This document shows, piece by piece, positions 12,001-15,000 of a DNA stretch of 64,000 nt. The position numbers are program-made. How positions within the stretch are numbered: the first letter of the stretch is position 1; each line of letters begins with the position of its first letter. The stretch lies in NCBI RefSeq assembly GCF_024298765.1, contig NZ_CP101211.1, one strand, 5' to 3'. The stretch comes from Escherichia coli. GTDB lineage: Bacteria > Pseudomonadota > Gammaproteobacteria > Enterobacterales > Enterobacteriaceae.

Positions 12001-15000
12001 TTTAATATTAACGCTTTGGTTTATGAAAATTTATCCAATTTGCTCACCGAAGACTTTTAACTTATTTAACCCCCTTTATCGCCAATCTGTGATTTTCTAA
12101 TGTTAGCCTACAGTTCTAGGGCCCTTGCTCCCATGATGCGAATCCTTCCACCTAATAAAGATTAACGCCTCATTCCTGTATGCCGGTCTTACGACGCCAG
12201 TGCTCGGGCTATTTTCGGTCCTAACAAGACCTGGCGAGAGATTTAATCAGGGCGTGGTGTGACTGAGCAGCAGCTGGGGCACTGTTATCCGCTTGCAGAT
12301 TTAACCCCCTTAATCGCCAAACTGGGGTACTGTCCTGATGCTGGCCTTCAGTTCTGGGCTGGGTGGCTATCACTTCCTCCCATAATGCGAAATGTAACTG
12401 CTGATACAGATTAACGTCATATTCCTGCGTGCCGGTCTGCCAACACCAGTGCACGGGCTTTTTTCGGTCATCACATTACCGGGCAGGAGATTTTATCAGG
12501 GCGTGGTGTGACTGAGCAGAAGCTGGGGCACTGTCAGCAGCTTGCAGATTTAACCCCCTTAATCGCCACACTGGGATTCTGGTCTGATATTGACCTTCCG
12601 TTCTGGGCGGGGTTCGGTTTGCTAACACTTACTCCCATGATACGAAATGTGCCTGCTGATACAGATTAAAATCACATTACTGCATACCGGTCTGCCGACA
12701 CCGGTGCATGGGCGATTTCCGACGATCTCAAGAACATATGGGAGATTATATCAGGGAGAGTAGTATGCCTGAGCAGCATCTGAAGGCACTGTCAGCCGCT
12801 GTCAGATTTAACCCCCTTAATCGCCAAACTGGTGTTCTGTCCTCATGCAGGCCTTCAGTTCTGAGCTGGGTTGCTATCACTTGCTCCCATAATGCGAAAT
12901 GTACCTGCTGATACAAATTAACGTCGTATTCCTGTATGCCGGTCTGCCGACACCAGTGCTCGGGCTATTTTCGGTCCTAACAAGACCTGGCGAGAGATTT
13001 AATCAGGGCGTGGTGTGACTGAGCAGCAGCTGGGGCACTGTTATCCGCTTGCAGATTTAACCCCCTTAATCGCCAAACTGGGGTACTGTCCTGATGCTGG
13101 CCTTCAGTTCTGGGCTGGGTGGCTATCACTTCCTCCCATAATGCGAAATGTAACTGCTGATACAGATTAACGTCATATTCCTGCGTGCCGGTCTGCCAAC
13201 ACCAGTGCACGGGCTTTTTTCGGTCATCACATTACCGGGCAGGAGATTTTATCAGGGCGTGGTGTGACTGAGCAGAAGCTGGGGCACTGTCAGCAGCTTG
13301 CAGATTTAACCCCCTTAATCGCCACACTGGGATTCTGGTCTGATATTGACCTTCCGTTCTGGGCGGGGTTCGGTTTGCTAACACTTACTCCCATGATACG
13401 AAATGTGCCTGCTGATACAGATTAAAATCACATTACTGCATACCGGTCTGCCGACACCGGTGCATGGGCGATTTCCGACGATCTCAAGAACATATGGGAG
13501 ATTATATCAGGGAGAGTAGTATGCCTGAGCAGCATCTGAAGGCACTGTCAGCCGCTGTCAGATTTAACCCCCTTAATCGCCAAACTGGTGTTCTGTCCTC
13601 ATGCAGGCCTTCAGTTCTGAGCTGGGTTGCTATCACTTGCTCCCATAATGCGAAATGTACCTGCTGATACAAATTAACGTCGTATTCCTGTATGCCGGTC
13701 TGCCGACACCAGTGCTCGGGCTATTTTCGGTCCTAACAAGACCTGGCGAGAGATTTAATCAGGGCGTGGTGTGACTGAGCAGCAGCTGGGGCACTGTTAT
13801 CCGCTTGCAGATTTAACCCCCTTAATCGCCACACTGGGGTTCAGTCCTGATAGTGTCCTTCCGTCCTGGGCTCGGTTGCTAACACTTGCTCCCATTGCGC
13901 CTGCTGATACAGATTAAAGTCACATTACTGCATACCGATCTGCCGACTCCGGTGCATGGCTTTTTCCGATAATCACAAGGACGGACGGGTGATTTTATCT
14001 TTGCATAGTATGTCTGAGCAGCATCAGAAGGCTCTGTCAGCCACTGGCAGATTTAACCCCCTTAATCTCCAAACTGGGATCAGTCCTGATAGTGTCCTTC
14101 CGTCCTGGGCAGGGTTGCTAACACTTGCTCCCATGATACGAAATGCGCCAGCTGATACAGATTAACGTCTCATTACTCCATGCCGGTCTGCCGAAACTGG
14201 TGCATAGCTTTTTTCGATATTCGCATGAACAGACGCTTGATTTTTTCAGGTTGTAATATACCTGAGCAGCATCTGAAGGCACTTTCAGTCTCTGTCAGAT
14301 TTAACCCCCTTAATCGCCAATCTGGGATTTTCTGATGTTAACCTACAGTTCAAGGCCCTTGCTCCCATGATGCGAACCTTGCAACCTGATAAAGATTTAA
14401 GCCTCATTCCTGTATGCCGGTCTTACGACTCTAGTGCACGGGGACTATTTTCGGTCATAATAAGACCTGGCGGGAGATTTAATCAGGCGTGGTGTGACTG
14501 AGCAGAAGCTGGGGCACTGTCAGCCGCTGGCAGATTAAAACCCTTTATTCGCCATCTCAAGACGTCATTATGGGTAGTCCTTTTAACTTTCTAAGGACCA
14601 TTAAGCTTAAACTCCGTTTAGAGAATGACGTAAGATTTAGGCTAAGCAGGTTAAGTGATCCCCGCTCCCGGGTTGAACACTTTATTCATCGTACGAGCGA
14701 AAGATTGTCCTTCGGGAAATATTTCTTATACACCGCTCGGGCACTTACAGCCACTGGCGGATTTAACCCCCTTAATCGCCAAACTGGGGTACTGTCCTGA
14801 TGCTGGCCTTCAGTTCTGGGCTGGGTGGCTATCACTTGCTCCCCTAATGCGAAATGTGTCTGTTGATACAGATTAACGTCATTTTCCTGCGTGCCGGTCT
14901 GCCGACACCAGTGCACGGCCTTTTTTCGGTCATTACATTACCGGGCAGGAGATTTTATCAGGGCGTGGTGTTACTGAGCAGGAGCTGGGGCACTATCAGC

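What the first reader, a model, noticed from the sequence alone, without database searches (positions are those of the whole stretch)
14545..14760. Unique ~210-bp insert interrupting one repeat unit of the array
Unit 11 (starting ~14535) has a degenerate anchor (GCAGATTAAAACCCTTTATTCGCCATCTC), then sequence unrelated to the other units (TTAAGCTTAAACTCCGTTTAGAGAATGACG...CGAAAGATTGTCCTTCGGGAAATATTTC) before the array resumes at 14763. It could be a small inserted element, a remnant of the ancestral sequence, or a small RNA gene embedded in the array.
Basis: seen in the sequence. Interest (0 to 1): 0.4.

Follow-up and report, generated by a model that had tools for sequence, protein, structure and literature searches.

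The report
Fossil repeat unit in plasmid centromere array
The "insert" is most likely not an insertion but an old, strongly diverged copy of the 249-bp repeat unit, with a decayed ParB-type binding box, in the presumed partition (centromere-like) array of an IncHI2 resistance plasmid; it is real but ordinary.

Summary
The window is the first 64 kb of an IncHI2 (R478-like) plasmid. The array has 15 units of about 249 bp between trhC and parA/parB.

Unit 11 (14535-14761) really is odd. Its box is degenerate, and its 180-bp core (14555-14734) gives no BLAST or nhmmer match to the other units.

It is not an insertion:
- It is 227 bp, shorter than a normal unit (235-258 bp).
- Its ends are unit-type.
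- It has no terminal repeats or target duplication.
- It occurs nowhere outside IncHI2 plasmids.

Global alignment shows weak but significant collinear similarity to regular units. All three phased AGATT motifs of a regular unit are kept.

The odd unit is in all 1126 IncHI2 plasmids found, and about 93% carry two paralogous copies (about 84% identical). In the canonical 13-unit array each copy sits second in one of two blocks. The window is a 6% minority variant that lost the first copy by recombination.

There is no Rfam hit, promoter, terminator, fold signal or covariation, so a small-RNA gene is unsupported.

Best reading: a fossil unit subtype that escaped homogenisation and probably binds ParB poorly. 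Interest is low.

The parts
12065..15757 (+). Tandem array of 15 units (about 249 bp). Each regular unit carries one box, AGATTTAACCCCCTTAATCGCCA. This is the presumed Par1 centromere (parS-like) of the IncHI2 plasmid. The last unit is degenerate.
   Evidence: The same box recurs with 52-56 bp spacing upstream of parA in IncHI1-type relatives, and a related box with 66-67 bp spacing in IncHI3/5-type relatives.
14535..14761 (+). Odd unit ('oddB', unit 11), 227 bp. This is the finding.
   Evidence: It is orthologous at 93% to unit 8 of the second IncHI2 lineage and paralogous at about 84% to 'oddA' of canonical arrays.
14532..14554 (+). Degenerate box AGATTAAAACCCTTTATTCGCCA. It has 4 mismatches to the consensus in the arms and C-tract. 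The hexamer TCGCCA (14549-14554) is kept.
   Evidence: The box differs among the four odd copies compared.
14555..14734 (.). Diverged core with 40.6% G+C. It has no local homology to regular units but weak collinear global similarity to them.
   Evidence: no local hit; global alignment z of 2.2-4.3; 4/600 and 1/600 natural window segments score as high; G+C.
14735..14761 (+). Unit-type 3' end (GCTCGGGCACTTACAGCCACTGGCGGA) leading into the next box.
   Evidence: family D1: 47-nt junction repeat at 14508-14554 and 14735-14781, 81% identical, spacing 227.
14626..14651 (.). 26-nt block TGACGTAAGATTTAGGCTAAGCAGGT, invariant in all four odd copies compared. It contains the middle phased AGATT (14633-14637).
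14702..14706 (+). Third phased AGATT motif of the odd unit (offset +167). Regular units have it at +174 to +194.
   Evidence: AGATT occurs 36 times in the array against 5 expected, at three phased positions per unit, plus strand only.
14300..14534 (+). Short (235 bp) unit 10, which precedes the odd unit. It is 91% identical to unit 1. In canonical arrays each odd unit follows such a short unit.
12065..12299 (+). Hybrid unit 1. The first 139 nt equal canonical unit 1 and the last 96 nt equal unit 4. This is the recombination scar that removed the first odd unit (oddA) from this plasmid.
   Evidence: This junction is found in 68 of 1127 records.
12300..13811 (+). Exact tandem duplication of a three-unit block (units 2-4 equal units 5-7, 756 bp each).
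   Evidence: 100% identity.
16002..17255 (+). parA, a ParA-family Walker-type partition ATPase of 417 aa.
17252..18256 (+). parB, a P1-ParB-like centromere-binding protein of 334 aa.
   Evidence: PDB 1zx4/2ntz P1 ParB, E 4e-16, residues 150-330; PF08775, E 5e-11.
8955..11636 (+). trhC (TraC-family conjugation ATPase), the gene upstream of the array.

Best explanation
The segment is a deeply diverged subtype of the array's own repeat unit, a 'fossil' unit. It is not foreign DNA.

The array lies upstream of parA-parB, and the ParB is P1-like. Every regular unit carries one box, AGATTTAAC-CCCC-TTAATCGCCA. That box is conserved, at quite different spacings, in the arrays of IncHI1-type relatives. 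It contains the hexamer TCGCCA, which is also box B of P1 parS. I therefore infer that the array is the Par1 centromere and that the box is the ParB site.

The ancestral IncHI2 array was two blocks, each of the form [short unit - odd unit - regular units]. The odd unit therefore arose once and was copied with its block, giving oddA and oddB.

Its box decayed and its interior diverged. I infer that it then stopped taking part in the unequal crossing-over and gene conversion that keep regular units alike, and drifted at the neutral rate.

In this window a crossover between unit 1 and a unit-4-type copy deleted oddA. The remaining oddB therefore looks unique.

Functionally it is most likely a weak or non-binding gap of about 460 bp between good boxes (14300 to 14762), tolerated because the other sites suffice.

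Shown: anatomy, distribution, paralogy, residual similarity, recombination scar.
Inferred: ParB binding to the box, loss of binding in the odd unit, escape from homogenisation.
For: Unit-like anatomy:
- Length is 227 bp against 235-258 bp.
- Both ends are the normal unit junction, a 47-nt repeat 81% identical.
- The core aligns collinearly with regular cores better than controls do: z = 2.2-4.3 across two scoring schemes, with 0/300 shuffles reaching the observed score in three of four tests and 5/300 in the fourth. Only 4/600 (oddB) and 1/600 (oddA) natural window segments score as high.
- Consensus-to-consensus identity is 61%, with islands ACTT.CTC..CCAT.A, GA.T.ACGT.A.ATT and CG.GCGG.AGATT.T.
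- AGATT, enriched 36 against 5 expected and phased at three positions per unit, is kept at all three positions in unit 11 and in all four odd copies.

Distribution:
- It is present in all 1126 IncHI2 records, with 2174 places.
- Both IncHI2 lineages share a 13-unit array with odd units at positions 2 and 8, each after a short unit.
- The neighbouring units are co-duplicated: unit 1 vs unit 10 91%, unit 2 vs unit 12 95%, oddA vs oddB about 84%.

Evolution:
- Between lineages the odd units are 93-96% identical, like the rest of the array and the non-coding flanks. The flanking genes are about 99% identical.
- The recombination scar lies in unit 1, and the window type is found in 68 of 1127 records.
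- Either odd copy, or both, can be missing: L015 has only oddA, and L013 is cut by IS91 to two units with no odd unit.

Context:
- ParB is homologous to P1 ParB.
- The box is conserved in relatives.
- P1 parS, recalled from memory, was verified at 100% identity in the P1 record under a centromere-like incB feature.
- Degenerate-box units also recur regularly in a relative's array: every fifth unit in L009.
Against: - Local methods (BLAST, nhmmer) find no similarity in the core.
- The global-alignment signal is modest for oddB under some scoring schemes (z 1.3-2.9).
- oddA and oddB are not independent tests, because they are paralogues.
- The core is about 10 points lower in G+C than regular units (40.6 vs about 50%), close to the plasmid average. 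That would also fit replacement by backbone-like DNA.
- A 46-nt stretch differs at only one position between oddA and oddB, where about 7-8 differences would be expected at about 84% identity. This hints at some constraint, although the window was chosen after looking.
- No ParB-binding data exist for any box here, and I could not read the R27 and R478 papers that may describe the repeats.
Confidence: 0.7

Rival explanations
1. Interior replacement. An ancestral regular unit had its interior swapped for unrelated, backbone-like DNA by illegitimate recombination, or by insertion plus deletion. Only the box and the 3' end were kept, and the mosaic was then duplicated with its block.
For: - There is no local homology in the core.
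- The transitions at 14554/14555 and 14734/14735 are sharp.
- G+C of the core is 40.6%, against about 50% for units and 42% for the window.
Against: - Collinear residual similarity exceeds both shuffled and natural-sequence controls.
- Three AGATT motifs are kept in phase and in orientation.
- The length is unit-like.
- No donor sequence exists in the window, in 72,556 plasmids, in phages or in E. coli genomes.
Confidence: 0.15
2. Functional punctuation element. The odd core is a conserved site for a factor other than ParB (a nucleoid protein, ParA, or a boundary for ParB spreading), or it encodes a small RNA. On this reading it is kept in each block for that reason.
For: - It is present in every IncHI2 array sampled except truncated ones.
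- A 26-nt block is invariant in four copies, and a 46-nt stretch has one oddA/oddB difference.
- It holds the same position in both blocks.
Against: - No Rfam hit at E<=10.
- No promoter-like or terminator-like site.
- Fold z-scores are -0.24 and -1.10.
- The covariation term is about 0, and 1-nt indels occur among copies.
- There is no IHF consensus in it.
- It diverges between lineages as fast as neighbouring non-coding DNA.
- Natural plasmids lack oddA (6%, including this one), oddB (12 records) or both.
Confidence: 0.1
3. Remnant of a small mobile element (IS fragment or MITE) that landed in one unit.
For: Only the superficial look of unrelated sequence inside a repeat.
Against: - No terminal inverted repeats or flanking direct repeats. 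The only inverted pairs are internal 8-12-nt matches.
- No net length gain.
- No copies elsewhere in the window or in any collection searched.
- No conserved ORF: the ATG at 14570 is AGG in oddA of pCAU16175_1, and frame-breaking indels occur in lineage-2 copies.
Confidence: 0.02

Closest known systems
P1 prophage-plasmid parS and ParB (box A ATTTCAC/A, box B TCGCCA)
   Same: The IncHI2 ParB is homologous to the DNA-binding part of P1 ParB (PDB 1zx4/2ntz, E 4e-16; PF08775). The array box ends in AATCGCCA, as does the right arm of P1 parS (GTGAAATCGCCA). It starts with a box-A-like heptamer, ATTTAAC. The P1 parS sequence was verified. The box A / box B names come from my own knowledge of the Funnell, Austin and Schumacher work.
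   Different: P1 has one compact parS of about 80 bp, with an IHF site, downstream of parB. Here there are 13-16 boxes at about 249-bp spacing upstream of parA, and no IHF consensus. Binding has not been tested.
F plasmid sopC (12 tandem 43-bp repeats, each a SopB site)
   Same: A partition system with a long ParA-type ATPase whose centromere is a tandem array of one binding site per unit. Copy number is variable and individual units are redundant. This rests on my own knowledge.
   Different: The unit here is about six times longer. The array lies upstream of the operon. It has a two-block higher-order structure with a diverged unit subtype.
Par1 repeat arrays of IncHI1 (R27-type) and IncHI3/IncHI5-type plasmids
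   Same: The gene context is the same, (trhC)-array-parA-parB. The box ATTTAACCCCCTTAATCGCCAG is the same in IncHI1-type plasmids. IncHI3/5-type plasmids have a related box, AAAACAACCCCCTTGTTCGCAG. Arrays there also contain units with degenerate boxes at regular intervals.
   Different: Their periods are 52-56 and 66-67 bp, not 249 bp. Nothing similar to the odd core occurs in them.

Membership tests
Repeat unit of the IncHI2 par array (diverged subtype) | Unit-type junctions at both ends | tested here: met
   A 47-nt junction repeat at 14508-14554 and 14735-14781, 81% identical, spacing 227.
Repeat unit of the IncHI2 par array (diverged subtype) | Unit-like length | tested here: met
   227 bp against 235-258 bp; 226-228 bp in the other odd copies.
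Repeat unit of the IncHI2 par array (diverged subtype) | Sequence similarity of the interior to other units | tested here: inconclusive
   There is no local hit. Global collinear alignment is above controls: z 2.2-4.3, and 1-4 of 600 natural segments score as high. The three phased AGATT motifs are kept.
Repeat unit of the IncHI2 par array (diverged subtype) | Consensus box TTTAACCCCCTTAATCGCCA | tested here: not met
   4 mismatches in 20-22 nt. TCGCCA is kept, but the arms and C-tract are altered, and the box varies among odd copies.
ParB-bound plasmid centromere (parS-type array) | Adjacent parA-parB operon with a centromere-binding ParB | tested here: met
ParB-bound plasmid centromere (parS-type array) | Repeated site conserved with the ParB lineage in related plasmids | tested here: met
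ParB-bound plasmid centromere (parS-type array) | Specific ParB binding, and centromere or incompatibility activity | not testable with these tools
   This needs EMSA, ChIP, or stability and incompatibility assays. The R27 partition paper (PMC154067) is not held.
Small RNA gene | Match to a described RNA family | tested here: not met
   No Rfam match at E<=10 in 11500-16200.
Small RNA gene | Promoter and terminator delimiting a transcript | tested here: not met
   No site falls within 14535-14761 on either strand.
Small RNA gene | Stable or conserved secondary structure | tested here: not met
   Fold z-scores are -0.24 and -1.10. The covariation term is -0.12 and +0.12, based on only four sequences.
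Small RNA gene | Discrete transcript | not testable with these tools
   No expression data are available.
Insertion sequence / MITE remnant | Terminal inverted repeats and target-site duplication | tested here: not met
Insertion sequence / MITE remnant | Copies at other genomic sites | tested here: not met
   Copies occur only in IncHI2 arrays. The five chromosomal places in E. coli were not inspected.

The most novel reading that the evidence does not exclude
The odd units are not dead copies. They would be conserved 'punctuation' of the IncHI2 centromere, one near the start of each block. They would carry a site for a second factor (the invariant block 14626-14651 and the adjoining GATC-containing stretch), or act as a barrier or phase-setter that organises ParB loading into two domains. 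This would be a so far undescribed two-component architecture for a plasmid centromere.
Probability: 0.08. Interest if true: 0.45.

Novelty: new member of a known kind. Interest (0 to 1): 0.15.

Why it matters
Its importance is limited.

- **Array history.** It shows that the unannotated 3.5-4.5 kb repeat region of IncHI2 resistance plasmids has a conserved two-block architecture with a fossil unit in each block. These units are handy markers for reconstructing recombination history and for checking long-read assemblies of this repeat region.
- **Testable predictions.** It also points to the likely ParB box and two auxiliary AGATT sub-sites, which could be tested.
- **No new biology.** It does not reveal a new gene, RNA or mobile element.

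Tried and rejected
- **Rfam** at permissive threshold over the whole array: nothing.
- **Single-sequence folds** on both strands: not better than shuffles.
- **Alignment folds** of four copies on both strands: no covariation.
- **Promoter and terminator scan:** nothing in the unit.
- **IHF consensus scan:** none in the unit.
- **Self-BLAST of the core** against the 64-kb window: only 9-13-nt chance matches.
- **Core against par regions** of IncHI1, IncHI3/5, Providencia and Citrobacter relatives: nothing.
- **Core against phages:** only 25-nt chance hits.
- **nhmmer with a regular-unit profile:** only the 3' junction is found.
- **First semi-global alignment test** (free end gaps, harsh penalties): uninformative, with scores near zero. 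It was replaced by true global tests.
- **Literature:**
  - The R27 double-partition paper is not held.
  - Searches for IncHI repeats or centromere descriptions returned nothing specific.
  - IncHI2 papers that I read mention only parAB and parMR.
  - One search was badly specified and wasted.
- **Coding hypothesis** for the ORF at 14570-14800: rejected. The start codon is not conserved and there are frame-breaking indels.
- **Record annotations,** including pAPEC-O1-R: no feature on the array.

Full report
**Context**

The region matches more than 1100 large conjugative plasmids typed IncHI2/IncHI2A at up to 100% identity. Window coordinates coincide with record coordinates of such plasmids: trhC at 8955-11636, parA at 16002.

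The finding lies in a non-coding stretch between trhC and the parA-parB operon (16002-18256). No feature is annotated on this stretch in the records inspected.

Tandem Repeats Finder reports a 249-bp period array split at exactly the finding (12124-14554 and 14735-15594).

**Checking the observation**

Fifteen anchors matching TTTAACCCCCTTAATCGCCA lie on the plus strand only, from 12065 to 15509, spaced 227-258 bp apart. The eleventh (14535) is the degenerate TTAAAACCCTTTATTCGCCA.

- In a multiple alignment unit 11 is 48-51% identical to every other unit. The first fourteen units are 70-100% identical to one another.
- BLAST of 14555-14740 against the window gives only 9-13-nt chance matches.
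- nhmmer with a profile of the regular units finds only the 3' junction.

The word 'insert' is not correct:
- Unit 11 is 227 bp, shorter than any other unit.
- The 47 nt spanning each of its ends (14508-14554 and 14735-14781) are an 81% direct repeat of the ordinary unit junction.
- There are no terminal inverted repeats and no target duplication.

**It is not unique**

The core is present in all 1126 plasmid records that carry the array, at 2174 places. In E. coli complete genomes the median is two places per genome, almost all on plasmids. It is absent from phages and from the par regions of IncHI1-, IncHI3/5-, Providencia- and Citrobacter-type relatives.

I fetched one complete plasmid, pCAU16175_1. 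Its second copy lies in the same array, 1.7 kb upstream, and is 84.5% identical.

Decomposing several arrays gives a canonical 13-unit architecture shared by both IncHI2 lineages:
- short unit 1 (234 bp), then oddA, then four or five regular units;
- short unit 10 (231-235 bp), then oddB, then four or five regular units.

The units around the two odd copies are themselves paralogous: unit 1 vs unit 10 at 91%, and unit 2 vs unit 12 at 95%. The array therefore looks like an old duplication of a block that already contained the odd unit.

**Why the window has only one copy**

The window's unit 1 is a hybrid. Its first 139 nt are identical to canonical unit 1, and its last 96 nt are identical to unit 4. 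A recombination event therefore removed oddA.

- The window also carries an exact 756-bp duplication: units 2-4 equal units 5-7.
- The hybrid junction is found in 68 of 1127 records. 1051 records have the canonical form.
- Other natural variants exist. A six-unit array keeps only oddA (L015). An array cut by IS91 keeps two units and no odd unit (L013). pAPEC-O1-R has 16 units.

**Diverged unit or foreign DNA?**

Local methods see nothing. A true global alignment of the trimmed cores (159 nt) against the regular cores does better than controls:
- It scores above dinucleotide-preserving shuffles. z = 2.9 (oddB) and 4.3 (oddA) under one scheme, with 0/300 shuffles as high. z = 2.2 and 3.5 under another, with 5/300 and 0/300.
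- It scores above natural 159-nt segments drawn from the rest of the window. Only 4/600 (oddB) and 1/600 (oddA) score as high, and the reverse complements score at background.
- Consensus against consensus gives 61% identity, with collinear islands ACTT.CTC..CCAT.A, GA.T.ACGT.A.ATT and CG.GCGG.AGATT.T.

An independent line of evidence is the pentamer AGATT:
- It occurs 36 times in the array against 5 expected, on the plus strand only.
- It sits at three phased positions per unit: -3, about +93 to +114, and about +174 to +194.
- Unit 11 has it at -3, +98 and +167, and both internal copies are invariant in all four odd units compared.

Together with the unit-type ends and length, this favours an old, strongly diverged unit over replacement by unrelated DNA. 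The signal is modest, and the lower G+C of the core (40.6% against about 50%) keeps replacement alive as a rival.

**What the array is**

- ParB (334 aa) is homologous over residues 150-330 to the DNA-binding region of P1 ParB, whose structures with parS are solved (1zx4, 2ntz; E 4e-16). It also matches PF08775.
- ParA is a 417-aa ParA-family ATPase.
- Relatives with 88-89% identical ParA carry the same box, ATTTAACCCCCTTAATCGCCAG, upstream of parA at 52-56-bp spacing.
- Relatives with about 64% identical ParA carry AAAACAACCCCCTTGTTCGCAG at 66-67-bp spacing.
- The short arms flanking the C-tract stay inverted repeats in both forms (TTAA...TTAA and AACAA...TTGTT).
- The box ends in AATCGCCA, as does the right arm of P1 parS. 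I recalled that sequence from memory and verified it at 100% in the P1 records, under a feature named incB/centromere-like. That TCGCCA is P1 'box B' and ATTTCAC 'box A' is my own knowledge.

I therefore infer that the box is the ParB site and the array is the Par1 centromere. This has not been tested here.

Arrays of relatives also contain regularly placed units with degenerate boxes, for example every fifth unit in a 334-bp higher-order repeat in L009. Degenerate members are therefore normal for this kind of array.

**Tests for an independent function of the odd unit**

- There is no Rfam match at E<=10.
- No promoter-like or terminator-like site lies in it.
- Fold energies are no better than shuffles: z -0.24 on the plus strand and -1.10 on the minus strand.
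- There is no covariation in four copies on either strand.
- There is no IHF consensus.
- The only sizeable ORF (14570-14800) loses its start codon in oddA and is broken by 1-nt indels in lineage-2 copies.

Between the two IncHI2 lineages the odd units are 93% (oddB) and 96% (oddA) identical. That matches the regular units and the non-coding flanks (93-97%), while the flanking coding sequence is about 99% identical. There is thus no sign of extra constraint.

The one hint of constraint is a 46-nt stretch (from 14626) with a single oddA/oddB difference, including a 26-nt block invariant in all four copies. That window was chosen after looking, so it carries little weight.

**Conclusion**

The feature is real, but it is best read as a fossil subtype of the array's own unit.

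- It was created once and duplicated with its block.
- It carries a decayed box and probably binds ParB poorly.
- It is probably excluded from the homogenisation that keeps regular units similar.
- It looks unique here only because this plasmid lost the sister copy.

I put about 0.7 on this reading, 0.15 on interior replacement, about 0.1 on a separate function, and about 0.02 on a mobile-element remnant.

Interest is low. The by-products may be of more use than the odd unit itself: the conserved box, the phased AGATT sub-sites, and the two-block architecture with its recombination variants.

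Noticed in passing
window 12065-15757; L006-L009, L011: The same 21-nt box sits upstream of parA at very different periods: 249 bp in IncHI2 and 52-56 bp in IncHI1-type plasmids. A related box sits at 66-67 bp in IncHI3/5-type plasmids. The arms flanking the C-tract stay inverted repeats in both forms (TTAA...TTAA vs AACAA...TTGTT). Why IncHI2 units are about five times longer is unexplained.
   Followed up: partly
window 12040-15640: AGATT occurs 36 times on the plus strand of the array against 5 expected, and its complement only 3 times. It is phased at three positions per unit. These may be auxiliary protein-contact sites.
   Followed up: partly
window 12065-12299 and 12300-13811: Unit 1 is a unit-1/unit-4 hybrid with the crossover near 12203. 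Units 2-4 are duplicated exactly (756 bp twice). The array is actively reshuffled: 2, 6, 13, 15 and 16 units were seen in different plasmids.
   Followed up: yes
L009 1-2732 and 5447-6409: An IncHI5-like relative has ParB-box arrays on both sides of parAB. The upstream one is a 334-bp higher-order repeat (5 x 67 bp) in which every fifth box is degenerate.
   Followed up: partly
L008 4335-6670: The R27-type array is split into two sub-arrays by an 800-bp non-repeat spacer that carries small annotated ORFs. This is another two-block centromere layout. The spacer is unrelated to the IncHI2 odd core.
   Followed up: partly
window 15925-15975: Just upstream of parA there is a palindrome ACGCATTATGCGT (15936-15948) and a repeated ATGCGTAAA motif. 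An R27-type relative has a 20-bp repeat, ACGCATAACGCGTAAAGTAT, at the same place. This is likely the parA operator. Regular array units contain a similar ATAATGCGAAAT.
   Followed up: no
pCAU16175_1 12351-17350 vs L012: Between the two IncHI2 lineages, the array and its non-coding flanks differ by about 3-7% where units are orthologous, with unit-level rearrangements elsewhere. The adjacent trhC and parA coding sequence differs by about 1%, and the proteins are identical.
   Followed up: partly
L013 (NZ_CP069167.1) 3391-5500: An IS91-family element has truncated the array to its last two units in a complete 218-kb conjugative plasmid. A full array is therefore not indispensable; parMR may compensate.
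   Followed up: no
window 11664-11695: A hairpin (AAACCAGAT...ATCTGGTTT) followed by a T-run lies right after the trhC stop. It looks like an intrinsic terminator that insulates the array from the transfer operon. The scan tool missed it because the loop is long.
   Followed up: no
L012 3186-3347; L015 1671-1820; L008 4336-6565: Small 'hypothetical protein' genes are annotated inside the repeat arrays of several records. They are almost certainly annotation artefacts of the repeats.
   Followed up: no
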